Position numbers and translations under genes: made by a program. From assembly GCA_944389465.1 (NCBI GenBank), contig CALXML010000006.1:13-64012 (forward strand): DNA of 64,000 nt. Direction: 5' to 3'. A model generated the notes under the pieces. The model saw nothing but the letters and a program-made list of their open reading frames with translations. It ran no database searches and was not told where the DNA came from. Origin of the DNA: an uncultured Alphaproteobacteria bacterium (GTDB taxonomy: Bacteria > Pseudomonadota > Alphaproteobacteria > Rs-D84). Shown in pieces: positions 31,712 to 51,194 of the stretch (its first letter is position 1; each line of letters opens with the position of its first letter).

Positions 31712-31787
31712 TCGGGCATAGTTCAGTCGGTAGAACAACGGACTGTTAATCCGTATGTCACTGGTTCGAGTCCAGTTGCCCGAGCCA
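31712..31787 (+). tRNA. tRNA-Asn (anticodon GUU)
   Basis: 76-nt cloverleaf folded by hand: TCGGGCA acceptor, anticodon loop CTGTTAA, ACTGG-TTCGAGT-CCAGT T-arm, encoded CCA. Confidence 0.9.
31743..31787 (+). repeat. attL: 45-bp direct repeat (3' half of tRNA-Asn)
   Basis: CTGTTAATCCGTATGTCACTGGTTCGAGTCCAGTTGCCCGAGCCA is identical to 43461-43505. Confidence 0.9.
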
Positions 31788-31795
31788 CGAATTCA

Positions 31796-32120: not shown

Positions 32121-33194
32121 ATGGCAACAATTGAAAAACGACCATCAAAGAAAACCAACAAAGTTAGTTATCGTGCAAGGGTATGTGTATTTGGATATCC
32201 AAGGGCATCAAAAACATTTCCAACCAAGACCGCTGCTGAAACTTGGGCAAAAATGACCGAAGCCAGAATGTTGCAGGGTGCGAATCTTGCGGTTATAGAA
32301 GCACAAAGGCACACCGTGGCTGAATTGGTCGACTTGTATGAAAAACATTTGCAGGCCAACCCAAAGAAAGCGTCTGTTGACACCATCAGACATATCAGAA
32401 TGTGGAAAACAGTATTGGGCCAATATGCTTTATCCAGTTTGACCCCGTCCTTGCTGATTCAAGCACGCGACCAAATTTCAGAATCAAAAGATGCCCGATT
32501 GCAAAAGAAAAAAAGCAACGCAACCATTAACCGTTATATGGCCGCATTATCTGTTATGTTATCGTATGCTGTCCGTGAATTGGAATGGTTGGAAAACAAC
32601 CCTGTAACCAAGATATCCAAATTATCTGAACCACGTGGCCGTGTCCGTTATTTAAGCGATGAAGAACGTGAAAATTTGCTTGCTGAAACCAAGAAAGCCA
32701 ACAACCCTTATCTGCATCCTGCTGTGTTAATTGGCATAACCACTGGTGCCAGACGAATGGAAATAATGTCGTTAAAATGGCAAGACGTTGATTTGAATGC
32801 AGGTCGCGCAATATTACAAGATACCAAGAATGGTGAAAGACGTTATATGCCATTGGCTGGGCCTGCATTGGCAGAATTGCGTAAATTATATACCAACCGC
32901 AAACCAAACGACATTTATGTATTCCCAAGCCACGATGGCACCAAACCATTTGATATCCAGCGCAGTTGGTATAAAGCAATGGCAGATGCTGGTCTTGAAA
33001 ACTTTCATTTTCACGATTTGCGACACACTTGTGCATCATATTTGGCTATGAACGGTTATTCAATGGCCGAAATTGCCGCTATTTTGGGCCACAAGACCCT
33101 GCAAATGACTAAAAGGTATGCACACCTGTCCGATGAACATTCACAAACCATTGTGGAAACAATGGCCAATAAAATATTCGGGGAAACAGACTAA
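32121..33194 (+). CDS. int: tyrosine site-specific integrase
   Basis: Catalytic ARRMEI (R), HDLRHTCAS (HxxR), LGHKTLQMTKRYAH (H..Y); 357 aa; next to the tRNA. Confidence 0.9.
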   Translation: MATIEKRPSKKTNKVSYRARVCVFGYPRASKTFPTKTAAETWAKMTEARMLQGANLAVIEAQRHTVAELVDLYEKHLQANPKKASVDTIRHIRMWKTVLGQYALSSLTPSLLIQARDQISESKDARLQKKKSNATINRYMAALSVMLSYAVRELEWLENNPVTKISKLSEPRGRVRYLSDEERENLLAETKKANNPYLHPAVLIGITTGARRMEIMSLKWQDVDLNAGRAILQDTKNGERRYMPLAGPALAELRKLYTNRKPNDIYVFPSHDGTKPFDIQRSWYKAMADAGLENFHFHDLRHTCASYLAMNGYSMAEIAAILGHKTLQMTKRYAHLSDEHSQTIVETMANKIFGETD

Positions 33195-35137: not shown

Positions 35138-35396
35138 TGATGGCGATGATGTTGGGTGTATTTCTGGTTTCACAAATGGGACATACTATATATAATATAC
35201 CATATAGGGGGCGACAGCCCCCGTCTATCTGCACCTATAAACAACACTTCATCATTCCCCATTATATTCCCCCCCACTATCAGCCCAATACCCCCACCCC
35301 TGTGTTCATTCATCACAGCCCCCCACCACCCCATTTTCGGGTTGCCTTTATTCCCAAAATTGCTGTAAAATATCCGCAGGAAACAAAAGGAAAAAT

Positions 35397-36971
35397 ATGT
35401 CAAAAGAACAAGAACGCGCCGAATTGCACCGTATTATCTGGAAAATAGCCAATGACCTGCGTGGTTCAGTGGACGGGTGGGACTTTAAATCATATGTTTT
35501 GGGTATGTTATTTTATCGTTACATATCTGAAAGAATTGCCACAGACGTGGATAAAGTTGAACATAAAGCAGGAAACACGCAATTCAGTTATGCAAAAATT
35601 TCAGATGCGGATGCAGAGAATGGACGTGCAGATATTGTGGACACATATGGTTTCTTTATTGCACCGTCTGAATTATTCGTGAATGTTCAAAAACGTGCCA
35701 GTACAGACGATAAATTAAATGAAACATTGGCCGCAGTATTCAAACACATTGAAAATTCGGCAATTGGCACCGAAAGCGAAAACGATTTCAAGGGCCTGTT
35801 TGATGACATAGACGTTAATTCTAACAAATTGGGTGCCACGGTTATTGAACGTAACAAGAAACTGGTCAAGATATTGGATGCAATTGCTGATTTGAACCTT
35901 GGTGAAATTCAAGACAGCACCATTGACGCGTTTGGGGACGCATATGAATATTTAATGACAATGTATGCGTCCAATGCTGGTAAATCAGGCGGTGAATTCT
36001 TCACCCCACAAGAAGTATCCAAATTATTGGCAAAAATCACCTTGGTTGACCGTAATCAACCAAATAATATGAAAACCGAAGTGAACAAGGTTTATGACCC
36101 TGCGTGCGGTTCTGGTTCGTTATTGTTGCAATTTGCCAAGGTTCTGGGTCGTGATGCTGTTCACCAAGGGTTCTTTGGCCAAGAAATCAACATAACAACA
36201 TATAACCTGTGCCGTATAAATATGTTCCTGCACGGTATCAATTATTCCAAGTTTGATATTGCCCACGGGGACACATTATTGAACCCCCAACATTGGGATG
36301 ATGAACCATTTGAAGCCATCGTGTCCAACCCACCATACAGCACAAAATGGGAGGGTGATTCAAACCCATTGTTAATAAACGACCCACGTTTTTCACCCGC
36401 TGGGGTTTTGGCACCGAAAAGTGCGGCGGATTTGGCATTCACAATGCATATGTTATCTTGGTTATCAACCGATGGCACTGCGGCAATTGTTGAATTCCCT
36501 GGGGTGTTATATCGTGGTGGCGCAGAAAAGAAAATCCGCCAGTATTTGGTTGATAATAACTTCGTTGATTGCGTTATTCAATTGCCACAAAACCTGTTCT
36601 TTGGGGTAAGTATCGCAACCTGCATCATTGTGTTAAAGAAAAGCAAGAACGATAACCACGTCCTGTTTATTGATGGCAGCGAACAATTCATCCATTCGGG
36701 CAATAAAAACAAATTATCGGACAAAAACATTGAAACATTGCTGAACGCATATATCAAACGTGAAAACGTGGAACATTTCTGCAAATTGGTAAAGAAAGAC
36801 GATATTGCCGAAAATGATTATAATTTATCGGTATCCAGTTATGTAGAAACCAAAGACACACGTGAAGTTGTTGACATAACAGAATTGAACCAGCGCATCA
36901 CAGGTATCGTTGCACGCCAAAACGAACTTCGCACCAAAATTGATGCCATTGTGAAAGATTTAGAGGGCTAA
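35397..36971 (+). CDS. hsdM: type I restriction-modification methyltransferase subunit M
   Basis: HsdM N-terminal domain (IWKIANDLRG), motif I VYDPACGSGSLL, motif IV NPPYS. Confidence 0.9.
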   Translation: MSKEQERAELHRIIWKIANDLRGSVDGWDFKSYVLGMLFYRYISERIATDVDKVEHKAGNTQFSYAKISDADAENGRADIVDTYGFFIAPSELFVNVQKRASTDDKLNETLAAVFKHIENSAIGTESENDFKGLFDDIDVNSNKLGATVIERNKKLVKILDAIADLNLGEIQDSTIDAFGDAYEYLMTMYASNAGKSGGEFFTPQEVSKLLAKITLVDRNQPNNMKTEVNKVYDPACGSGSLLLQFAKVLGRDAVHQGFFGQEINITTYNLCRINMFLHGINYSKFDIAHGDTLLNPQHWDDEPFEAIVSNPPYSTKWEGDSNPLLINDPRFSPAGVLAPKSAADLAFTMHMLSWLSTDGTAAIVEFPGVLYRGGAEKKIRQYLVDNNFVDCVIQLPQNLFFGVSIATCIIVLKKSKNDNHVLFIDGSEQFIHSGNKNKLSDKNIETLLNAYIKRENVEHFCKLVKKDDIAENDYNLSVSSYVETKDTREVVDITELNQRITGIVARQNELRTKIDAIVKDLEG

Positions 36972-36973
36972 TA

Positions 36974-37771
36974 ATGCGTTTAGCAGAAGTGCTATCTTCG
37001 CCACAAACTAATACCTTTGTGCAAGTAGATTCTTTTTTGGACCGAAAACTTGCCCCTGGCAGACAAAAACGTGTTGATATCGGCAGAATCCGTTCAACAT
37101 ATTTTTGTAATCACTGTAATGATTTGATGACTTTTGCCACTCGAGAAAATGGGAAATTATATTGCGTTGGTGTATCTGATACACAGGTAAGCATTGATTG
37201 CGTATTGGAATGTGCAATATGCAAAACACCCGTAAAAAAATGGTTTTTAATAGAGAGCAAAGACAAAATATATTATCCGGCCCCCGAAGTACATATATTA
37301 AAGCAATCAGAACATTTGTCTGACGATGTAATGCTAGAAAACAGATGCCCTGTGTCAATTGGTGTATTATTGGATAAAGCACAACACGCATACTATGAAA
37401 AACTTGGTGCTGGTGCAGCGATTTATTTAAGAAAAATTTATGAACAAATTACAGTTAAAGCCGCAGAAGCAAAAAATATTCCAACAAAAAATGCTAACGG
37501 ACATAGAAAAAAATTTGCTGAATTATTGAAAAATGTAGATGTTATTGCACATATTGTACCACACGAGTTTTCTGCAAATGGCTATAGATTGTTTGGCGAA
37601 TTAAGCGATATTTTGCACAATGATTATGACGAATGTATTGCATTGGAAAAATATAACGATTTGCGTAGATTAATATGTGGCATTTTAGATAACATAAAAA
37701 ACAATGAAGAAATGTTGAAATCCCTTGAACGATTGGGGTGGAACGAGGAGGATAACAATGTCCAGGATTGA
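36974..37771 (+). CDS. DUF4145-like protein embedded in the R-M operon, with N-terminal Cys4 module
   Basis: C-terminal half (LDKAQHAYYEKLGAGAAIYLRKIYEQI...LFGELSDILHN) resembles DUF4145 as I recall it from type I R-M loci. N-terminal CNHC...CAIC pairs suggest a zinc ribbon. Confidence 0.5.
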   Translation: MRLAEVLSSPQTNTFVQVDSFLDRKLAPGRQKRVDIGRIRSTYFCNHCNDLMTFATRENGKLYCVGVSDTQVSIDCVLECAICKTPVKKWFLIESKDKIYYPAPEVHILKQSEHLSDDVMLENRCPVSIGVLLDKAQHAYYEKLGAGAAIYLRKIYEQITVKAAEAKNIPTKNANGHRKKFAELLKNVDVIAHIVPHEFSANGYRLFGELSDILHNDYDECIALEKYNDLRRLICGILDNIKNNEEMLKSLERLGWNEEDNNVQD

Positions 37772-38426
37772 TGAACTTATTGCCAAATATTGCCCGAATG
37801 GTGTTAACCATAAAGAATTGTGGAAATTAACAACCTGGGATAAAAAATTCAACGGTGTTGATAAATCAATGCAACCAAAGGTTATAAAATATCCATATTT
37901 GTTAGCAGCAGATATGAATACATTGGAAACCGAACAAGGCAACGTCAGGTTATTGGCAACAGGTATAGGTGCAGAAAAATATACAACAGAAAAATTAGCG
38001 GGCAGTAACTTATGCGAGGGAGAAATTGTTGCAATCCCCTGGGGTGGAACACCGAATGTAAAATATTATAAAGGAAAGTTTGTCACAGCAGATAACAGAA
38101 TAGCAACCTCCAATGATACAACAATATTAAACAATAAGTTTTTATATTATTATCTTTGTGCAAATTTGGATTTGATAACTTCTTTTTATAGGGGCGCAGG
38201 GATACAACATCCACATATGAAATCCGTGCTAACAATGAAAATCCCTGTTCCGCCACTGGCTGTGCAGGAAGAGATTGTTAATATACTAGATTCTTTCACA
38301 TTATTGGAAGCGGAGCTGGAAGCGGAGCTGGTGGCCAGAAAAAAGCAATATGAACATTATCGTGATAAGTTATTGAATTTTGCTGATATTTCACAGGGGG
38401 GGGGTAAGGACGATGGCACTTTGTGA
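37758..38426 (+). CDS. hsdS: type I R-M specificity subunit, N-terminal half (TRD1 + central conserved region), truncated after a G9 tract
   Basis: MSRIDELIAKYCPNGV start, conserved helix PPLAVQEEIVNILDSF..LEAELEAELVARKKQYEHYRDKLLNF. The frame ends 22 nt after the homopolymer. Confidence 0.85.
   Translation: MSRIDELIAKYCPNGVNHKELWKLTTWDKKFNGVDKSMQPKVIKYPYLLAADMNTLETEQGNVRLLATGIGAEKYTTEKLAGSNLCEGEIVAIPWGGTPNVKYYKGKFVTADNRIATSNDTTILNNKFLYYYLCANLDLITSFYRGAGIQHPHMKSVLTMKIPVPPLAVQEEIVNILDSFTLLEAELEAELVARKKQYEHYRDKLLNFADISQGGGKDDGTL
38307..38330 (+). repeat. perfect 12-bp tandem duplication GAAGCGGAGCTG x2 (EAEL-EAEL) in the hsdS central helix
   Basis: 38307-18 and 38319-30 are identical. Confidence 0.9.
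38396..38404 (+). repeat. G9 homopolymer at the hsdS half-junction
   Basis: Nine consecutive G counted directly. It separates frame 0 (37758-38426) from frame +1 (38380-38949). Confidence 0.95.
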
Positions 38427-38949
38427 AATAGCAAAAATTACAATTGGAGAATTTGTTCATAAAAACAATCAAACATCAGATGGCTTGTATCCTGTTTATA
38501 ACGGTGGAACCAGCAACACAGGTTTTTATAATGAATATAATCACACAAGCAACAATATTATAATAAGTGCAAGGGGAGCAAATGCTGGGTTTGTAAATAG
38601 GGTTTTTGTAAATTATTGGGCAGGAAATAGTTGTTATAGTGTTGATGTGATAGACAGAGAAAACATCAATTGGACGTATATTTATTATGTATTAAAAAAC
38701 AATCAACAAAAACTTATTGGTGAACAACAAACAGGTAGCATCCCTGCTATTTCAAAAAAACAGGTGGAAAATTTTAGAGTTCCTATTCCATCACTTGCTG
38801 AACAGGAACGTATTGTTTCCATATTGGATAAATTTGATGCGTTGGTGAATGATATATCTGATGGTTTGCCTGCGGAAATAAATGCACGTCGCCAACAGTA
38901 TGAGTATTATAGGGATAAATTATTGAACTTTGAACCAATTGCTGCATAA
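38413..38949 (+). CDS. hsdS: type I R-M specificity subunit, C-terminal half (TRD2 + distal conserved region)
   Basis: ATG at 38413 follows TAAGGA. Ends with PSLAEQERIVSILDKFDALV...RRQQYEYYRDKLLNF, parallel to the end of the first half. Confidence 0.8.
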   Translation: MALCEIAKITIGEFVHKNNQTSDGLYPVYNGGTSNTGFYNEYNHTSNNIIISARGANAGFVNRVFVNYWAGNSCYSVDVIDRENINWTYIYYVLKNNQQKLIGEQQTGSIPAISKKQVENFRVPIPSLAEQERIVSILDKFDALVNDISDGLPAEINARRQQYEYYRDKLLNFEPIAA

Positions 38950-38960
38950 AGGAGAAAAAA

Positions 38961-39245
38961 ATGGTCAAAACAAACAAAAAATGGTCTATGAATAAAATAT
39001 TGGTAACAGCATTGTTATCATTGTGTGTTGTTTATACTGGTGTTGGTTTGATAAATCAAGCAATTAAACCAGCACACGCATTTGATAGTTGGGATTTAAA
39101 AAATGCCATAGAAGATGTCGTGTCAGATAAAATATCCGCATATGATTATGATTTTAAATCCGCCGTAAGACGTGTTGTTAATAATAATTGTTCAGTATCG
39201 TGTTATGAATCTTATGGAAGTGTTAGTTGCAGTATAGATTGCTAA
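38961..39245 (+). CDS. small exported/membrane protein (94 aa) inserted between hsdS and hsdR
   Basis: RBS AAGGAGA, N-terminal hydrophobic segment, C-terminal CSVSCYESYGSVSCSIDC. Confidence 0.5.
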   Translation: MVKTNKKWSMNKILVTALLSLCVVYTGVGLINQAIKPAHAFDSWDLKNAIEDVVSDKISAYDYDFKSAVRRVVNNNCSVSCYESYGSVSCSIDC

Positions 39246-39268
39246 ACTTTGAACCAATGGCTGCATAA
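39245..39268 (+). repeat. duplicated hsdS 3' end
   Basis: AACTTTGAACCAATGGCTGCATAA versus 38926-38949 AACTTTGAACCAATTGCTGCATAA (1 mismatch). Confidence 0.85.
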
Positions 39269-39276
39269 CAAAAGGA

Positions 39277-42200
39277 ATGATTATGGTAAATTATAGTGTT
39301 GTTGCAGAAAATAAAGAATCCACCGTTGTGGCACAATATAAATCCACAAATGGCCGTGAAACAACATACCAATCCGAAGCGGAATTGGAAAGGACCTTTA
39401 TCAAACAATTGGAAAAACAGGCATACGAATATCTTCCTATTCACAGCGAAGAAGATTTAATAAACAACCTGCGTCACCAATTGGAATTGCTAAATGACTA
39501 TAAATTTACTGATAACGAATGGGCAAACTTTTTTAAACAAAACATTGCCAACCAGGCCAATGGCATCAAAGAAAAGACCGCAATGTTGCAACGTGACGGG
39601 CATATTCAATTGCTAACACGTGATGATGGCACCACCAAAAACATTTATTTGCTGGATAAAAAAGACATTCACAATAACCGCCTGCAAGTTATCAACCAAT
39701 ATACAACCGATGCTGGGGTTCACGAAAACCGTTATGACGTAACCGTATTGGTTAATGGGTTGCCAATGGTGCATATTGAATTAAAACGTCGTGGGGTTGA
39801 TATCAAACAGGCATTCAACCAAATCAACCGTTATCAACAAGATAGTTTCTGGACAGGTTGCGGATTGTATCAGTATATCCAGATATTCGTTATATCCAAT
39901 GGCACATATACAAAATATTATAGCAACACAACACGTGACCTGCATATAAATGAAGCCAAGAATAATTCAATCACACCACGCAAGAAAACCAGTGACAGTT
40001 TTGAATTCACATCTTGGTGGGCCGATGCCACAAATATGCCAATCACTGACCTGATGGACTTTGCCAAGACATTTTTTGCCAAACACACCATTTTGAACAT
40101 TTTAACCAAGTATTGCGTGTTTAACACCGATGACCACTTGTTGGTTATGCGCCCATATCAAATCGTTGCCACGGAACGAATTTTGAACAAAATCAGAGTG
40201 TCTTCAAATTACAAGAAATATGGCACGATTGATGCTGGGGGGTATATCTGGCACACCACGGGTTCTGGTAAAACGTTGACCAGTTTTAAAACCGCACAAT
40301 TGGCCAGCGCAATGCAGGAAATCGACAAGGTTTTATTCGTTGTTGACCGTCGTGATTTGGATTATCAAACAATGCAGGAATATGACCGTTTTGAAAAAGG
40401 TGCCGCCAACAGTAACACCAGCACCGCTGTATTAAAACGTCAATTGGAAGATTCCAATGCCAGAATTATAATCACAACAATTCAAAAACTGTCCCTGTTC
40501 ATTGAAAAGAATCCAAAGCATCCTGTATTTGATAAACACATTGTTTTGATATTTGACGAATGCCATCGTTCCCATTTTGGTATTGCCCACGAACAAATTG
40601 TCAAAGCATTCAAAAAATATCACCTGTTTGGCTTCACTGGAACACCTATATTTGCACAAAATGCCAGTGCTGGTGGCAAAGCACATTTGAAAACCACAGA
40701 CCAAGCATTTGGGGAACGTCTGCACGTGTATAGCATTGTGGACGCAATTCGTGATAAAAATGTTTTGCCATTCAAGGTTGATTATGTTGGAACAGTGAAG
40801 TGCAAGAACGCAGAAAACATTGAAGATAAAAAGATAAGTGACATTGACCGTGAAAAGGTTTTAATGGCCCCAGAACGCATTTCTAACAACGTAGGATACA
40901 TATTGAACAATTTTAATACAAAGACCAAGCGGAACGATAAATCGTTCTTGTTCAGTATTGTAACAAACGTTGAAAAGGTGGCCAGCGCAAAAGACCGTAA
41001 CAAGATTGAAAAAGTTAAACAAGCAATTCGTATGTCTGGGTTCAATTCTATATTTGCGGTGCAATCCATTCCAATGGCACGTCTGTATTATAACGAATTC
41101 AAAAAGCAGATGGCCGAACACCCTGAAAAAGGGTTAAAGATTGCCACCATATTCAGTTTTGCCGCCAATGGTGACGAATATTCTGATGACGGTATGTTTG
41201 ATGAAAATCCAGAAAACACAGGTGCATTGGATGCAACGTCACGTGAATTCTTGGAATCTGCTATTGACGATTATAACAAAATGTTTGGCACCAGTTATGA
41301 CACGTCCAGCGACAAATTCCAGAATTATTATAAAGACGTTTCACTTCGTATGAAAAACCGTGAAATTGACCTGCTGATTGTGGTTAATATGTTCCTGACA
41401 GGATTTGATGCCACGACATTAAATACGTTGTGGGTTGATAAAAACTTGCGTATGCACGGTTTGTTGCAGGCATTTTCACGCACCAACCGTATATTGAATT
41501 CTATCAAGACACACGGGAACATCATTTGCTTCCGCAATCTTGAAAAAGCAACCAATGAAAGTTTGGCTCTGTTCGGTGATAAAGATGCTGCAGGTGTCGT
41601 GTTATTAAAGACATTTGACGAATATTACAATGGTTATGAAGACAAAGGAAAACAAGTCCCAGGGTATAAAGAATTGGTTGATGAACTGTTGGAAAAATTC
41701 CCAATCGGACAAATGATTCTTGGCGAAACCGCAGAAAAAGAATTCGTGCGTTTGTATAGTGCAATTATCCGTTTAAGCAATGTTCTGGCTTCGTTTGATG
41801 AATTTGCGGATAAACAGATATTAACTGAACGTGATATCCAAGATTATGCCAGTATGTATATTGAAATGCACAGCAAATATATCAGAACCAAGGAAGCAGA
41901 AAAAGAAAATATCAACGACGACTTGGTATTTGAAATGGAACTTATCAAGCAGATAGAAGTGAATATTGACTATATTCTGGCCTTGGTTAAACAGTACCAC
42001 GACAAAAATTGCCAAGACAAAGAAATCAGGGTTTCAATTGAACGTGCAATAGATGCCAGTGTTGATTTGCGTAACAAAAAAGACCTGATTATGCAGTTTA
42101 TAGATTCTTTAACACCAGATTCTGTTGTGGATAGAGATTGGTTGGTGTTCGTGAATGAAGCCAAAATATCTGAATTGAACAAGATTATTGACCAAGAAAA

Positions 42201-42408
42201 TCTGAACAAAGAAGAAACATACACGTTCATCAGGAATTCGTTCCGCAATGGTTCAGTGCAGACAAATGGCCAAGACATTGAAAAGGTTTTGCCACCAATA
42301 TCACGTTTTGATAAATCTGCAAATCGCACCCAGCGCAAACGCAATATCATAACACGTCTGCTGGAATTCTTTGACAGATTCTTTGGCATATCTAATGGTG
42401 AATTTTAA
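39277..42408 (+). CDS. hsdR: type I restriction endonuclease subunit R (type IC-like length)
   Basis: 1043 aa. N-terminal nuclease region (VLVNGLPMVHIELKR), helicase motif I TGSGKT, motif II FDECHRS, motif VI region QAFSRTNR. Confidence 0.9.
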   Translation: MIMVNYSVVAENKESTVVAQYKSTNGRETTYQSEAELERTFIKQLEKQAYEYLPIHSEEDLINNLRHQLELLNDYKFTDNEWANFFKQNIANQANGIKEKTAMLQRDGHIQLLTRDDGTTKNIYLLDKKDIHNNRLQVINQYTTDAGVHENRYDVTVLVNGLPMVHIELKRRGVDIKQAFNQINRYQQDSFWTGCGLYQYIQIFVISNGTYTKYYSNTTRDLHINEAKNNSITPRKKTSDSFEFTSWWADATNMPITDLMDFAKTFFAKHTILNILTKYCVFNTDDHLLVMRPYQIVATERILNKIRVSSNYKKYGTIDAGGYIWHTTGSGKTLTSFKTAQLASAMQEIDKVLFVVDRRDLDYQTMQEYDRFEKGAANSNTSTAVLKRQLEDSNARIIITTIQKLSLFIEKNPKHPVFDKHIVLIFDECHRSHFGIAHEQIVKAFKKYHLFGFTGTPIFAQNASAGGKAHLKTTDQAFGERLHVYSIVDAIRDKNVLPFKVDYVGTVKCKNAENIEDKKISDIDREKVLMAPERISNNVGYILNNFNTKTKRNDKSFLFSIVTNVEKVASAKDRNKIEKVKQAIRMSGFNSIFAVQSIPMARLYYNEFKKQMAEHPEKGLKIATIFSFAANGDEYSDDGMFDENPENTGALDATSREFLESAIDDYNKMFGTSYDTSSDKFQNYYKDVSLRMKNREIDLLIVVNMFLTGFDATTLNTLWVDKNLRMHGLLQAFSRTNRILNSIKTHGNIICFRNLEKATNESLALFGDKDAAGVVLLKTFDEYYNGYEDKGKQVPGYKELVDELLEKFPIGQMILGETAEKEFVRLYSAIIRLSNVLASFDEFADKQILTERDIQDYASMYIEMHSKYIRTKEAEKENINDDLVFEMELIKQIEVNIDYILALVKQYHDKNCQDKEIRVSIERAIDASVDLRNKKDLIMQFIDSLTPDSVVDRDWLVFVNEAKISELNKIIDQENLNKEETYTFIRNSFRNGSVQTNGQDIEKVLPPISRFDKSANRTQRKRNIITRLLEFFDRFFGISNGEF

Positions 42409-43460: not shown

Positions 43461-43505
43461 CTGTTAATCCGTATGTCACTGGTTCGAGTCCAGTTGCCCG
43501 AGCCA
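43461..43505 (+). repeat. attR: 45-bp copy of the tRNA-Asn 3' half
   Basis: Identical to 31743-31787. Confidence 0.9.
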
Positions 43506-43513
43506 AGGATTTT

Positions 43514-45358: not shown

Positions 45359-45520
45359 AATTGGCGCGGGACGACCGCACCGAACAGTACCTATTATTTA
45401 TGGCGCACGCCACAACACACGGCACAACGCGCGGCAATAAAACATACGCGGTGATTGGATGAACCGCCGGCCCCAATAATGATTGGCGGCGCGTTGACGC
45501 GCCTGTGACGCCGCAAGACA
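45359..45520. repeat. GC-rich terminal module, left
   Basis: AATTGGCGCGGGACGACC...GGCGCGTTGACGCGCC... is the reverse complement (with small indels) of 51044-51194. Confidence 0.85.
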
Positions 45521-48225
45521 CAACCAGTGGTTGAATACACGGTTGATTTTCTGCCGGATATAACAGCCTATGACTTTGCATTTTTTCAAATCACGATTAC
45601 CGCAACACAACCACAGGTTGAATATTTTTAAAAATTCAACCAAATATGCAGATTACATCCGAACGGTTAATGTTGAATATGTTGTATTTTTGCCATAATG
45701 CTTGCGATATTAATACCAAATACAACCGATGGTTGAATTTATTGCGACGCTCAACCAAAATAATTGGACGATTATTGAATTAAAAGAACGATTTCGTTAA
45801 TGCCCCAAAATGGCAGGACAAAACACAACCTGTGGTTGAATATACTGCAACATTCAACCAATAATGACGCTGGCGAACCCCGAGCCACGAGAAGCGTTTT
45901 CAGCAACGCCCAAGATTAACAAGACTAAACACAACCTACGGTTGATTTTGTTGTAATATTCAATTAAGTATAGATAGCAAGTAATTGTATAGGCAGTTGT
46001 TTTAATATTTTGCTACAGTACCAAGATTAAATACAACTTGTGGTTGTGTTTATTGCAGTATTCAATCAAAAAATAATGTGCCAATTATTGGATTAAGAGA
46101 ACAAATTCATCAATGTCTGAAACAGCGTGGAAAAATACAACTTACGGTTGAATTTGTTGTAACATTCAACTAATGGCAGTGCGTTAGACTATTAGATTAT
46201 GCCCCCCAAGTTCAGTAACGTTTGGATTATAACCGTTAAACACAACCTGTAGTTGAATAATTTATAAAATTCAACCAAATACGCAGCTCTATGCCAAAAT
46301 GCCTAACAGAAATTACATTATATTTTGCTACAACCAGTACAATATTAGCATCAAATACAACTTCTGGTTGAATTTATCATAGCGTTCTGCTAACGACGGG
46401 CTCTGTCATTAAATTACAGATAGCGTTTTGCAATAATGTCCAGATTATCAAGAATCAATACAATCAGAGGTTGAATATTTTTAACAATTCAACTAAATAT
46501 ACAGGTTTATGTCCAAATAATTAGTGAAAAATATGTTATATTTTGTTGTCATAAGCGCAATTTTAACGCTAAATACAGCCTACGGTTGATTATATTATAA
46601 TATTCAATTAATCATAGGCGACAAGTGATTAGATTACAAACAGTAATTTTACCAACGTCCTATATTATCAAGCTCAAATACAACCTACGGTTGAAATCGT
46701 TGATATATTCAATTAAATACACTCCCAGCCAATTGCGCGGATTACCAGCATCAATTTCAACCTACGGTTGTATTTGATACATTCCGCACACCGACAGATA
46801 AAATGCAAACGGACACGATTTCAACTATAAATTCAACCTGTGGTTGTATTGCTCTTTGCATTTACGGACTTCTAATGAAATGCTAGACAAATGTATTTCG
46901 CAGGGCAATTAATAGACAATCCCCGACATTATGCATAATAATTCAACCTACGATTGTATTTAACCTTGTGTTTCTAGTATAATTCCAACCAGATAAACGT
47001 AATTAACTACTAACTTACCGAATGTAATTTTTTACTCATGGATACAACCTGTGGATGTATTACATTTGCACAAGTGCAGACGAGCGGATAATACGAGAAT
47101 TTAAACAAAGTTTCAACCCTTGGTTGTATTGGGCTTTGCGTTTGTAATGTTTTACTTAATATAACAAGATAAGTTGCAAACAATCGTAATTTTGATAAAA
47201 TACGATAATTTTTTACAACAATACAACCTATGGTTGAATTTGTTTTGATGTTTCCAGTATTTGCATCTATAAGGTTGGCAAACGTCTATAATCAGCGGCA
47301 AAATTGTTGACAACTCTCATTAGCGACATTTGCCGGTTTTGTCGCCATAAATTCAACCATAGGTTGTATTGTGGTTCGGGTTTTCCGCAATTTTTCTGTG
47401 CCGCCCCCAAAAGCATCAACCAAGCGACTACACCGCACAATGTAACTATTTTAAAAGTTCAATCCACATTAGGCACAATGACCAAATACAACTATGAGTT
47501 GAATATTACTTCTGATTTCTGCCGATTGTGCGAGCGTACAAGTTACACCGTCCTGTGTGATGGAATAATGTTTTTTCTGTTCTCCAATTGTCTGTTACGA
47601 AATTTGAACACTTTCGGAAGCCCGACCAAGTAAATTGCTATCTAAATGACTGATATGCATCGCCATGTGTGTAATATCAATACTAAATACAACTTGTGAT
47701 TGAATTTGCTAACGTATTCAACCAGTTATAACACGGTCAGCACATCCGGACTTTTAATGACGATTTGATAAAACATCTAGCTTAACCCACATGAATACAA
47801 TCTATAGTTGTAAGAAATACAAATTTCTATTCTTTGTTTTGTCGCGGGGACACATTCTGTCACAATCCGATTTTTTCTAAATTATCGGTGCTCAATCACT
47901 GTATTTTTATTCTTGCATATATGATGGCGTACACGGGACAATTTTTAGTCTTTTTGACTAGAAATATTTACAATATTCAACTACTGGTTGATTGCTAGTG
48001 CTGAAATCCGGTACTATTTTAGAAAACAATTAATGCGTTAAGAGCCAATACTTTTACAGAATGTAAATATACTACCTTGGATTGAAAAGTTTAATAAATT
48101 CTATCACTGGTTGAAGCGCATAGCTAAATATCAGCGTTTTTAACAAATTAATAAAATACAAAATTTTAAAAATGCTGCGTACAATGATGGGTTGCAACTC
48201 TGAAAAAACGCTAAATACTAACATA

Positions 48226-48248
48226 AAATTCAACCAATGGTTGAATTT
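48226..48248. repeat. perfectly palindromic 23-bp box near the array centre
   Basis: AAATTCAACC-AAT-GGTTGAATTT. Confidence 0.85.
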
Positions 48249-51043
48249 TATTATTCTGTCTAGTTTTTTATTGGGGCTTTGATAACCAAAACATCAAAAG
48301 GTTGCTTGCTAGTAATCAGCAGGACAAAAAACGTAAAATATTAAACGTAATTTCAACTGTGAGTTGAATTTTATTGGCTTGTCTTGTCTTTTTTTGATGA
48401 ATATAAAAAAGTATTCAACCATAGGTTGATTTTACGCCCAATATTGTAGTTGTTATCATAGATTTAGAACCAAACACTCGGATGGCGCGCACTTATGTAA
48501 ATTGGGGTGAAGTGTTTAACAAATACAACCACAGGTTGAATTTTGGTGTAAAATACTGCGGACTACCGTTAATTATCGTGTCAATCAAAGAATACATGTG
48601 TCCGACGAACATCCAGCAAAGCGTAATAAATTCAATACGAAATTCAACCAGAGGTTGTATTAGATTCTTTTCTATTGTACATAGGTGACCTTATAAGATG
48701 TATGCAAGTGGAATTTTATACTAAAACCAACCCTAGGTTGAATGAGCTGGCGTTAATGCAGGATATTGGTGGGGTGCTATCCGTAATCCAACAATCAATG
48801 GCATTATTATAAGTTGAATATATTTGTAAATTCAACCGTCGGTTGTATTTATGTCTTATTATCTCATATAAATAATGTTTTATAATGATTGTCCAACGGC
48901 TGTTGCAGATAATGATACAGCATATGTAGGCTGAACAAATTTTATTGTCATTACAGGTTGAATTAATGTCTGCAAAATCGCCTGTACCGCCATTTACAAT
49001 TATGTTTTGTTTGCTATTAGTCTTCCTTTGGTGGTGTTTTGGGGTGCACGGCTAAAAAATGTAACATCCACAACCACAGGTTGAAATTTCTGCTGTAAAT
49101 CTGCACTGTTTCCGAAGTTATCCCCAATAAGTCAATAATTGGGTATATGGGTTTTGATTAATTGAATAATACGATAGTTTCAATCATGGGTTGAATCTGT
49201 GTGCTTAATTTTGCGTTTTACAGCGGAGTATTGAATTATGAACAATATTTTTCAGCTATGCTGAATTTGTGGTGACGATATATGTTGGTGGTTGAATAAA
49301 TGACAAAAAAACAACCTTTGGTTGAATATTTATCCGTATTTTATAGACGTGTCGGATAAATGCTTTAAAAATACGAATTATAGATTAATCATTGGTGCTG
49401 TATATTTGTTGTCAAAATATCGGTAAAAATACCGAATGCTGATTATATACCAGAAGAAATACTAGGTAATAACAGACAAAAACACCATACAAAATTTAAC
49501 CATAGGTTGTACCCATGAGTAATAAATTACATTCGGTAAGTTATTAATAGTTTTAATTATAGTTATATGGTTTGTGTTATGTCAAAACACGGGGGTGAAT
49601 ACAACCATAGATTGAATCGTTGCGCAAAATCCCGCAAATTTACTTATTAAAATTTCTAATAATTCAGACAACTCATTTGCAACCAATGTAATTAAAGTAA
49701 AATACAACCACAAGTTGAATTATGACGCTATTTCTATTATAAGTTGATCATTTGTGTTAAGGTGTCTGAAGTGGAGAAACTTACATCAAAATCAACCCTA
49801 GATTGAATTTAGTGTTGGTATTTGTTTGTATAGAGCATTTGATTGTAGGAAACGGTTAGATTTTTCCAGATTAAACTTTTGTCATGTATAACTACTTGAA
49901 CTCTCAATCACTCTTGTTATTAATATTAAAGTTGCCAAAACACTGAACGCAATACAACCACAGGTTGAATTTATATTTAAAATCGTGTCTGTTTGCACTT
50001 TATCTGTCGGTGTGCGGAATGTATTAAATGCAACCGTAGGTTGAAATTAATGCTGGTAATCTGCGCGGTTGGCAGGAAATGCATTTGGTTGAACATATCA
50101 ATAAATTCAGCCGTAGGTTGTATTTGGGCTTGGTGATATAGGGTATTAGTAAAATTACTGTTTATAATCTAATCACTTGCCATCTATGATTAATTGAATA
50201 TTATAATAAATTCAACCACAAGTTGTATTTAAACCTGATAAGAAAGGAGTTTCAGAAATTGTAGATTATAATCCATCTATTGATAGTGTTGTCATTGGTT
50301 GAATGTTCTGTCAAAATCAACCACAGGTTGTATTTTTATGCCGTTGTTTCAGGCATTGATGAACTTGTTCTCTTAATTCAATAATTGGCACATCGTTTTT
50401 AATTGAATATTGCAACAAAATCAACCATGGGTTGTATTTTTGTGCCGTTGTTTCAGGTATTGATGAACCTGTTCTCTTAAGCCAATAATTATCCGCATCG
50501 TTTTTTTGATTGAACCTCGTGATAAATGCAACTACAGATTGTGTTTAATACTGGTAATCTAGGATGTTAACAAAAATTGTTAAACCAACTGTTGATAGTG
50601 TCGTCATTGGTTGAATGTTCTGTCAAAATCAACCACAGGTTGCATTTTGTCTTGATAATTTAAGGTATTATAAAAATCACTGTTTGCAATCTATTAATTT
50701 AATTGAATATTATGCAAAATTCAACCACAGGTTGTGTTTTATCTTGCTGTTTTGGGGCATCAATGAAATCGTTCTTTTAATTCAATAATCGGCCAATTAT
50801 TTTTTAATTAAATATCGTAATAAATTCAACTATCGGTTGTATTTAATATAAATATCGCAAGTGTTATGGCAGAAACGCAACATATTCAACATTAACCGTT
50901 CGGATGCAATCAGCATATTTAGTTGAATTTTTAAAAACATTCAACCTGTGGTTGTGTTGTGGTAATCGTTATTTGAAAAAAAACGCAAAGTCATAGGTTA
51001 TTACATCCGGCGGAAAATCAACCGTATATTCAATCTGTGATTG

Positions 51044-51194
51044 TGTCTTGCGGCGTTACAGGCGCGTCAACGCGCCGACAATCATTATTACGGGCCAGCG
51101 GTTCAGCCAATCGCCACGTATGTTTTATTGCCGCGTGTTGTGGCGTGCGTCATAAATAATAGATACTGCTCGGGCCGGTCGTCCCGCGCCAATT
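51044..51194. repeat. GC-rich terminal module, right
   Basis: Reverse complement of 45359-45520, with an approx 11-nt deletion and scattered substitutions. Confidence 0.85.

What the first reader, a model, noticed from the sequence alone, without database searches (positions are those of the whole stretch)
38396..38404. G9 homopolymer splits hsdS: predicted phase-variable type I specificity
The N-terminal half of hsdS (frame 0) terminates 22 nt after a run of nine G. The C-terminal half is open in frame +1 from 38380 straight through the tract. Loss of one G (G8) would fuse them into a 396-aa two-TRD HsdS (..ADISQGG-VRTMALCEIAK..). G10 gives an immediate TAA. As sequenced, two half-subunits are predicted: 222 aa, and 178 aa from ATG 38413 with its own TAAGGA RBS. 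Truncated HsdS proteins are known to dimerise and specify symmetric targets. Poly-G-split hsdS has been described in Neisseria gonorrhoeae (NgoAV). Slipped-strand changes here would therefore switch methylation specificity, acting as a phasevarion-like system.
Basis: partly seen in the sequence, partly recalled or inferred. Interest (0 to 1): 0.62.

Follow-up and report, generated by a model that had tools for sequence, protein, structure and literature searches.

The report
Poly-G switch splitting a restriction specificity gene
A run of nine G's really does cut the DNA-recognition gene of a restriction-modification system in two in this uncultured chicken-gut bacterium. The same run is 7, 8 or 9 G's long in other samples, so it looks like a slippage switch of an already described kind.

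Summary
G9 lies at 38396-38404, between the two target-recognition domains (TRDs) of a type IC (EcoR124/NgoAV-like) hsdS. It yields a 222-aa N-half and a 178-aa C-half.

The operon is hsdM, a 265-aa unknown gene, the split hsdS, a 94-aa ORF and hsdR. It sits on an 11.7-kb integrase island at tRNA-Asn in a Candidatus Enterousia genome.

Public assemblies carry the same site at different lengths:
- G9 (split) in at least four studies or assemblies.
- G8 (fused, about 396-400 aa) in at least eight.
- G7 (split) in two alleles.
- GGGGAGGG (interrupted, fused) in one.

A SNP 170 nt away occurs with both G8 and G9, so the length has changed more than once, or recombination has shuffled it.

A 12-nt repeat in the coiled-coil also varies, 2 versus 3 copies. 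[quoted passage not shown]

Switching within a clone, activity of the half-subunits and any gene-regulatory role remain untested, because only contigs were served, not reads.

This kind of switch is already described (NgoAV; Atack et al. 2020). It is a new member of a known kind and of modest interest.

The parts
31712..31787 (+). tRNA-Asn (GTT), the integration site of the island
   Evidence: ARAGORN and Rfam
31743..31793 (.). attL-like direct repeat (3' part of tRNA-Asn)
   Evidence: 51-nt direct repeat, 96% identical to 43461-43511, spacing 11718 nt. Logan contigs of the island end at 31764/43490, next to high-depth repeat nodes.
32121..33194 (+). tyrosine integrase of the island
   Evidence: Pfam Phage_integrase E 4e-32
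35397..36971 (+). hsdM (524 aa)
   Evidence: TIGR00497 hsdM 735 bits; Pfam N6_Mtase and HsdM_N
36974..37771 (+). 265-aa Cys-rich ORF of unknown function between hsdM and hsdS; its end overlaps the hsdS start by 14 nt
   Evidence: No Pfam, NCBIfam or PADLOC hit. Other alleles carry different genes in this slot.
37758..38426 (+). hsdS N-half (222 aa): TRD1 plus the central conserved coiled-coil region
   Evidence: Translation; Methylase_S; central region aligns to EcoR124II HsdS 7bst_A
38305..38331 (+). 12-nt tandem repeat TGGAAGCGGAGC, 2.2 copies, encoding LEAE-LEAE in the coiled coil; copy number varies between samples
   Evidence: TRF. A third copy is present in X3, X4 and X16 contigs. Related alleles carry 2 or 3 copies.
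38396..38404 (+). G9 homopolymer at the junction between the central conserved region and TRD2; the frameshift point
   Evidence: G7, G8, G9 and GGGGAGGG occur at the same site elsewhere.
38413..38949 (+). hsdS C-half (178 aa): complete TRD2 plus the distal conserved region
   Evidence: Translation; Methylase_S E 2.9e-27; distal region aligns to EcoR124II HsdS
38950..39268 (+). 319-nt cassette with a 94-aa signal-peptide, Cys-rich ORF (38961-39245), flanked by imperfect direct repeats of the hsdS 3' end (38915-38949 / 39234-39268)
   Evidence: Absent ('skips 319') in an X11 contig and in L086-L091, L094 and L096.
39277..42408 (+). hsdR (1043 aa), type IC
   Evidence: Pfam EcoR124_C, T1R_D3-like, SWI2_SNF2 and HSDR_N; TIGR00348
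43461..43511 (.). attR-like direct repeat

Best explanation
The G9 run is a genuine, mutable simple-sequence repeat. It sits right after the coiled-coil central conserved region and before TRD2 of a type IC hsdS, on an 11.7-kb tRNA-Asn integrative island of Candidatus Enterousia. Slipped-strand gain or loss of one G moves the gene between three states. G8 (3n+2) gives a fused two-TRD HsdS that recognises an asymmetric bipartite site. G9 gives an N-half with a 7-residue tail, whose stop overlaps the C-half start. G7 or G10 gives an N-half that ends at the TAA just after the tract. In the split states the N-half (TRD1 plus coiled coil) most likely homodimerises and, with 2 HsdM, specifies a palindrome of the TRD1 half-site, as in NgoAV, EcoR124I-delta50 and EcoDXXI-deltaC. 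The complete C-half may also be made and join in. A second repeat, 12 nt and 2 or 3 copies, independently sets the gap length. Shown here: the anatomy, type IC membership, length polymorphism in natural populations, and intactness of both halves and of hsdM and hsdR. Inferred: reversible switching within a clone, activity and specificity of the half-subunits, and the biological role (changing the defence barcode and/or epigenetic regulation).
For: (1) Anatomy. (2) Type IC membership: HsdR has the EcoR124_C domain. The best solved relative of HsdS is EcoR124II HsdS, which aligns across the repeat-bearing central region and the distal region. (3) Tract length across independent data. G9 occurs in X1 and X2, in X8 (another study), in X17 (another study, with a different TRD2) and in L084. 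G8 occurs in X3 and X4, X5/6/7/9, X10, X16, X21, X22, L001, L089-91 and L097. G7 occurs in L002/L003 and L095. GGGGAGGG occurs in L096. (4) Recurrent change: SNP 38574 G/A occurs with both G8 and G9, so all four combinations exist. (5) Repeat changes outpace point changes. The X3/X4 hsdS differs from the window by 1 SNP in 1401 nt, yet also by both repeat changes, while their island as a whole is 2.4% diverged. (6) The split is not accompanied by decay. Both halves, hsdM and hsdR are intact ORFs in every split allele examined. (7) Relatives: among 39 central junctions of related type IC hsdS from GTDB species genomes, 14 carry a G/C run of 7 or more, (GCAA)n or (GA)n at this same spot. That is 5.1 per kb against 0.037 per kb elsewhere in the loci, and 7 are fused and 7 split. 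(8) Literature: in NgoAV a poly-G change switches GCAN8TGC to GCAN7STCA (PMC9577141). SSRs in hsdS always lie between the TRDs (PMC7383803). Half-HsdS proteins form homodimers, and TAEL repeats set the gap (PMC3874165).
Against: There are no read-level data. All runs were served as assembled contigs, which drop minority variants, so heterogeneity within a sample, the hallmark of phase variation, is not shown. Samples with different tract lengths also differ as strains. The differences could therefore be fixed between lineages and not rapidly reversible. No methylome or expression data exist for this uncultured organism. A G8-G9 run is not improbable by composition alone. In N. gonorrhoeae about 47% of ngoAV-like loci were judged inactive (PMC9577141), so a split locus can also simply be dead.
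Confidence: 0.75

Rival explanations
1. The split is phenotypically silent or only partial. Both halves are translated and co-assemble non-covalently into a TRD1+TRD2 specificity unit. G9 cells would then keep the same asymmetric specificity as G8 cells, perhaps with two extra palindromic specificities added, and not switch.
For: The C-half is a complete TRD2 plus distal conserved region with an in-frame ATG. The N-half stop lies within 11 nt of that ATG in every out-of-frame state. Co-expression of N- and C-truncated EcoDXXI hsdS regenerated wild-type activity (PMC3874165). Half of the SSR-bearing relatives are split in their consensus assembly, which suggests the split state is well tolerated.
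Against: The AAGGA element is only 2-3 nt from the ATG, against about 7 nt at clear SD sites nearby. The ATG is not conserved in all tract-bearing alleles: L002, L022, L036 and L050 lack it. In NgoAV the downstream part is inactive (PMC9577141, PMC3874165).
Confidence: 0.15
2. Ordinary pseudogenisation. The frameshift inactivates hsdS and the island's R-M system is simply decaying in G9 and G7 strains. The tract-length differences are fixed lineage markers and not a switch.
For: There is no direct evidence that the half-subunits are active or that the tract varies within a clone. Contigs with different tracts come from different strains. Many gonococcal ngoAV loci are predicted to be inactive (PMC9577141).
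Against: No second lesion is present in any split allele: both halves, hsdM and hsdR are intact. The tract is kept at the same codon position across alleles with unrelated TRDs. Both G8 and G9 occur on both sides of SNP 38574. SSRs are about 140-fold enriched at this junction in relatives.
Confidence: 0.08
3. Sequencing or assembly error. The true tract is G8 and the gene is intact in the sequenced organism.
For: Homopolymers are error-prone, and the window comes from a metagenome assembly at about 7-13x word depth.
Against: G9 was recovered independently in Logan contigs of X1 and X2, in X8 and X17 from other studies with their own SNPs, and in a separate ENA assembly, L084. The same pipeline returns G8 for other samples.
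Confidence: 0.02

Closest known systems
NgoAV type IC R-M system of Neisseria gonorrhoeae FA1090 (hsdS1/hsdS2 split by a poly-G tract; PMC9577141; Adamczyk-Poplawska et al. 2011)
   Same: It is type IC. The poly-G run lies at the 3' end of the TRD1 plus central-region half. Loss of one G fuses the two parts into a two-TRD HsdS. Tract lengths differ among strains (6-9 G there, 7-9 G here). The truncated N-half is about 210-220 aa.
   Different: Here the downstream half is a complete TRD2 plus distal region with its own ATG, whereas in NgoAV it is incomplete and inactive. The host is an uncultured gut alphaproteobacterium, not a pathogen. The system rides on a tRNA-Asn integrase island. The coiled-coil 12-nt repeat varies in the same gene. 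Activity and specificities are unknown here.
SSR-containing hsdS genes surveyed in REBASE (Atack et al. 2020, FASEB J, PMC7383803)
   Same: The SSR lies between the two TRDs, immediately after the coiled-coil region. G[n], GCAA[n] and AG[n] types occur, and a full-length/truncated switch is predicted. I saw the same three SSR types at this junction in relatives.
   Different: That survey used isolate genomes in REBASE and reported 7.8% of hsdS genes with SSRs. In the HsdM-related type IC subset sampled here, 14 of 39 junctions carry one. The Enterousia lineage is not a REBASE-type cultured organism.
EcoR124I / EcoR124II and EcoDXXI (type IC) with their engineered truncations (PMC3874165)
   Same: A 12-bp repeat coding a 4-aa unit in the central helix occurs in 2 or 3 copies (TAEL there, LEAE here). 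The central and distal conserved regions are similar to each other. Truncated N- or C-halves form homodimers with palindromic specificity.
   Different: Those truncations were laboratory deletions or a Tn5 insertion, not an SSR switch. Here the effect of copy number on the gap is inferred, not measured.

Membership tests
Type IC restriction-modification systems (EcoR124 family) | HsdR with the EcoR124-type C-terminal domain and type I motor and nuclease domains | tested here: met
   Pfam EcoR124_C E 4e-61, T1R_D3-like, SWI2_SNF2 and HSDR_N; TIGR00348
Type IC restriction-modification systems (EcoR124 family) | HsdS with a central conserved coiled-coil region carrying a 4-aa tandem repeat, and a distal conserved region similar to the central one | tested here: met
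   LEAELEAELVARKKQYEHYRDKLLNF (central) against LPAEINARRQQYEYYRDKLLNF (distal). Both align to EcoR124II HsdS 7bst_A, E 3.7e-37. The 12-nt repeat is confirmed by TRF.
Type IC restriction-modification systems (EcoR124 family) | Genetic complementation or subunit exchange with known type IC systems | not testable with these tools
   Needs a bench experiment
SSR phase-variable hsdS (NgoAV-like) | The SSR lies between the two TRD-coding regions, directly after the coiled-coil region | tested here: met
   G9 begins 14 nt after the ...YRDKLLNF codons and 9 nt before the TRD2 ATG
SSR phase-variable hsdS (NgoAV-like) | Tract length differs among otherwise closely related sequences, giving both in-frame and out-of-frame states | tested here: met
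   G7, G8, G9 and an interrupted tract occur across more than 20 contigs or loci from at least 10 studies or assemblies. A four-gamete pattern exists with SNP 38574.
SSR phase-variable hsdS (NgoAV-like) | Reversible tract-length heterogeneity within a clonal population | not testable with these tools
   All runs were served as Logan contigs, none as raw reads. Contigs drop minority variants.
SSR phase-variable hsdS (NgoAV-like) | The truncated HsdS is active and gives a different (palindromic) methylation specificity | not testable with these tools
   No methylome or expression data; inferred from NgoAV, EcoR124I-delta50 and EcoDXXI-deltaC (PMC3874165)
Phasevarion (phase-variable regulon) | Switching of the methyltransferase changes the expression of a set of genes | not testable with these tools
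   Uncultured organism; no transcriptomes linked to tract state

The most novel reading that the evidence does not exclude
The locus is a two-dial specificity generator carried on a mobile island. The poly-G dial chooses between a covalent TRD1-TRD2 subunit and two free, complete halves. The free halves would assemble combinatorially into TRD1/TRD1, TRD2/TRD2 and TRD1/TRD2 units, giving several specificities at once, unlike NgoAV where the second half is dead. The 12-nt coiled-coil repeat dial independently sets the gap (2 or 3 copies). One hsdS could then give up to about eight methylation and restriction patterns without any recombinase or spare hsdS copies.
Probability: 0.2. Interest if true: 0.55.

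Novelty: new member of a known kind. Interest (0 to 1): 0.35.

Why it matters
It extends SSR-driven switching of type I specificity from cultured pathogens to an uncultured, small-genome gut alphaproteobacterium (Candidatus Enterousia), and it does so with population evidence taken straight from metagenomes. It shows both known type IC 'dials' varying naturally in one gene: the inter-TRD frameshift tract and the coiled-coil 12-nt repeat. It also offers a case where the downstream half is complete, so the question of whether free half-subunits mix in vivo could be tested. Practically, annotation pipelines will call this locus two 'truncated' hsdS genes or a pseudogene, when it is more likely a working switch.

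Tried and rejected
I could not scan the window's own genome or its relatives for other poly-G tracts or other hsdS copies.
- Read laying was busy once and worked on retry.
- I looked for raw-read runs to obtain a tract-length histogram. Both run searches returned only Logan contigs, so heterogeneity within a sample could not be tested.
- The genome-contig scan with HsdM found nothing closer than 75% identity. It gave no Enterousia species genome but served as a cross-phylum control set.
- The metagenome contigs pattern scan gave only one locus.
- The exact fused 400-aa protein of X3/X4 was not in the protein collection.
- I tested the tract against chance composition, and it is not significant on its own. 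The argument rests on position and polymorphism.
- I rejected sequencing error, because G9 was recovered independently several times.
- I looked for a function for the 265-aa and 94-aa ORFs in Pfam, NCBIfam and PADLOC, also at lax thresholds, and found nothing credible.
- I checked whether the internal ATG of TRD2 is specifically conserved in tract-bearing alleles. It is not consistently conserved, so it is weak evidence for a dedicated C-half start.

Full report
**What is there**

The window reads ...AATTTTGCTGATATTTCACA-G9-TAAGGACGATGGCACTTTGTGAA..., with the G run at exactly 38396-38404.
- From ATG 37758 the frame runs 222 codons to TGA 38424-38426, ending ...YRDKLLNFADISQGGGKDDGTL*.
- ATG 38413 opens a 178-codon frame to 38949. 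That frame is open from 38380.
- Both products hit Pfam Methylase_S.
- Removing one G gives ...ADISQGG-VRTMALCEIAK..., 396 aa.
- G10 or G7 puts the TAA that follows the run in frame.

One detail is overstated. The 'TAAGGA RBS' ends only 2-3 nt before the ATG, whereas obvious SD sites in this operon sit about 7 nt upstream (GAGGAGG for hsdS, AGGAG for the 94-aa ORF).

**Context**

The gene order is as follows:

| Coordinates | Gene |
|---|---|
| 35397-36971 | hsdM (TIGR00497, 735 bits) |
| 36974-37771 | 265-aa Cys-rich ORF with no family hit |
| 37758-38426 and 38413-38949 | split hsdS |
| 38961-39245 | 94-aa signal-peptide ORF |
| 39277-42408 | hsdR (EcoR124_C, T1R_D3-like, SWI2_SNF2, HSDR_N) |

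- The best solved relative of the read-through HsdS is EcoR124II HsdS (7bst_A, E 3.7e-37). The alignment runs across the repeat-bearing central region and the distal conserved region. This is a type IC system.
- The operon lies on an 11.7-kb island. tRNA-Asn is at 31712-31787. A tyrosine integrase is at 32121-33194. A 51-nt direct repeat of the tRNA 3' part lies at 31743-31793 and 43461-43511.
- Cluster mates (at least 90% identity) of the flanking FabI and RecG are named Candidatus Enterousia, uncultured Alphaproteobacteria. The runs that hold the stretch are mainly chicken-gut and other gut or faecal metagenomes.

**Is the tract real, and does it vary?**

Only assembled Logan contigs were served, no raw reads, so the evidence is at the level of sample consensus.

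| Tract state | Where seen |
|---|---|
| G9, split | X1, X2 (identical to the window and possibly its source); X8 (another study, 6 SNPs over 1073 nt); X17 (another study, different TRD2 in the same frame); ENA assembly L084; Logan contig L085 |
| G8, fused | X3, X4; X5, X6, X7, X9; X10; X16 (pig gut); X21; X22; L001 (884-kb scaffold, same ligA-fabI-hsdM synteny, 397 aa); L089-L091; L097 |
| G7, split | L002/L003 (227 + 160 aa); L095 (222 + 195 aa, stopping at the TAA) |
| GGGGAGGG, interrupted, fused | L096, which shares TRD1 and flanks with L095 |
| No tract, fused | L086-L088, L094 (junction reads ...LLNPENMKG...) |

Three further points bear on how the tract changes.
- SNP 38574 G/A occurs with both tract lengths. 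G with G9 is the window; G with G8 is X3/X4; A with G8 is X5 and X10; A with G9 is X8. The length has therefore changed more than once, or has been shuffled by recombination over 170 nt.
- X3/X4 differ from the window by one SNP in the 1401 nt around hsdS, yet carry both repeat changes. Their island overall is 2.4% diverged, 252 differences in 10.6 kb.
- In every split allele both halves, hsdM and hsdR are otherwise intact.

A sequencing error is therefore excluded, and simple decay is unlikely.

**Second variable repeat**

TGGAAGCGGAGC is present 2.2 times at 38305-38331 and encodes LEAE-LEAE in the coiled coil.
- X3, X4 and X16 carry a third copy.
- Related alleles have two copies (L001, L086, L096) or three (L089, L094, L095).
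- In EcoR124I/II, two versus three copies of the equivalent TAEL repeat change the gap from N6 to N7 (PMC3874165).

**Chance**

Dinucleotide-preserving shuffles of the window give about one G8 match on average, so the run alone is not significant. Its position is.

In 80 loci from GTDB species genomes found with HsdM (69-75% identity, many phyla), 39 central hsdS junctions could be located. Fourteen of them carry an SSR within 70 nt after the ...YxYRxxLLxF motif: G or C runs of 7-10, (GCAA)n or (GA)n. That is 5.1 per kb against 0.037 per kb in the rest of the 1.01 Mb. Seven are in frame and seven are split.

**How it most likely works**

The three frame states are read directly from the sequence.
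- G8 (3n+2) gives one TRD1-coil-TRD2-coil polypeptide.
- G9 gives the N-half plus GKDDGTL. Its stop lies 11 nt after the C-half ATG.
- G7 or G10 gives an N-half ending at the TAA 5 nt before that ATG.

From established type IC biology, an N-half retaining the central helix forms a homodimer that recognises a palindrome of the TRD1 half-site. This holds for EcoR124I-delta50, EcoDXXI-deltaC and natural NgoAV. A C-half can do the same (EcoDXXI-deltaN), and co-expressed halves regenerate the wild-type specificity (PMC3874165). In NgoAV, loss of one G switches GCAN8TGC to GCAN7STCA, and the tract is 6-9 G among 92 strains (PMC9577141).

By inference, slippage here toggles the system between an asymmetric site and at least one palindromic site, and the 12-nt repeat shifts the gap by 1 bp.

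Whether the complete C-half is translated is open. Its ATG is present in five of the six tract-bearing Enterousia alleles but not in several tract-bearing relatives from other phyla. Its SD spacing is also poor. If it is translated, the split state might add specificities and not merely replace one, or might even be silent. That is the main rival explanation.

Because hsdR is intact and the system is on a mobile island, changing the defence barcode is at least as plausible a role as gene regulation. The 'phasevarion' label is untested.

**Comparison with the known**

Atack et al. (PMC7383803) surveyed REBASE. They found SSRs in 7.8% of hsdS genes, always between the two TRDs and directly after the coiled coil, with G[n], GCAA[n] and AG[n] types. 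They predicted exactly this full-length/truncated switch.

The present locus fits that class and the NgoAV prototype. It differs in five ways:
- the host is uncultured, a gut alphaproteobacterium;
- the system is carried on an integrase island;
- the downstream half is complete;
- both repeat 'dials' are seen varying in natural populations;
- the tract-bearing junction is shared among alleles whose TRDs are shuffled. The TWDKKFNG-type TRD is TRD1 in the window but TRD2 in X16, X17 and L097.

**Verdict**

It is a new member of a known kind. My confidence in the switch explanation is about 0.75, and the interest is modest (0.35). The decisive missing data are read-level tract histograms and methylomes.

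No raw-read runs were available.

Noticed in passing
window 38950-39268 (ORF 38961-39245): A 319-nt cassette encodes a 94-aa protein with a signal peptide (...AHA|FDSW) and a Cys-rich tail (CSVSCYESYGSVSCSIDC). It is inserted between hsdS and hsdR and flanked by imperfect 35-nt direct repeats of the hsdS 3' end. It is absent ('skips 319') in an X11 contig and in L086-L091, L094 and L096, and present in L001, L084, L085 and L095. No family hit.
   Followed up: partly
window 35260-35335: A C-rich stretch (C7, C5, C4, C6, C4 runs) lies in an AT-rich genome. It sits between a strong sigma-70-like site (TTCACA-16-TATAAT, 35169-35196) and the hsdM ATG (35397). Positions at the C7 (35269), C5 (35295) and C6 (35317) runs are each one base shorter in the X3/X4 contigs. 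This may be a second layer of repeat-dependent control of the operon.
   Followed up: partly
L001 12108-12125: A G18 homopolymer lies about 115 nt upstream of a 347+-aa ORF, just beyond the R-M island in a related Enterousia scaffold. It hints that this lineage uses poly-G contingency tracts elsewhere.
   Followed up: no
L096 7055-7062 versus L095 7067-7073: Two loci with identical flanks and TRD1 differ at the junction. L095 has G7 (split, three LEAE copies). L096 has GGGGAGGG (interrupted, fused, two LEAE copies) and a different TRD2. The interrupted tract looks like a locked-on allele.
   Followed up: partly
window 36974-37771 and the same slot in L002, L086, L089, L095: The slot between hsdM and hsdS is filled by unrelated small genes in different alleles: 265 aa here; 149 aa; 198 aa; 69 aa; and a 106-aa DUF4357 protein. 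Only the DUF4357 gene has a family hit. This recalls the variable 'rlo' ORFs of Campylobacter hsd loci (from memory, not tested).
   Followed up: partly
L004-L083 (GTDB relatives), e.g. L057 9204-9235, L059 9193-9256, L079 9190-9241, L042 10699-10710, L067 9175-9188: (GCAA)n and (GA)n repeats, as well as G/C runs, sit at the same inter-TRD junction of related type IC hsdS in Ruegeria, Burkholderiaceae, Lysobacteraceae, Armatimonadetes, Bacteroidales, Actinomycetota and Gracilibacteria. Fourteen of 39 junctions carry one, well above the 7.8% reported for REBASE hsdS overall. C8 runs in the 'PIPPL' codons just before the coiled coil occur in L012 and L044.
   Followed up: partly
L090 around 2350-2450: A scaffold gap (run of N) falls exactly in the 12-nt LEAE repeat of hsdS in one ENA assembly. 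This fits an assembler failing to resolve the repeat copy number.
   Followed up: no
window 45600-46000: Logan contigs of X1 and X2 fold back on themselves there ('goes back', 'skips 273'). This fits the palindromic-box repeat array that earlier notes of this scan describe at 45359-51194.
   Followed up: no
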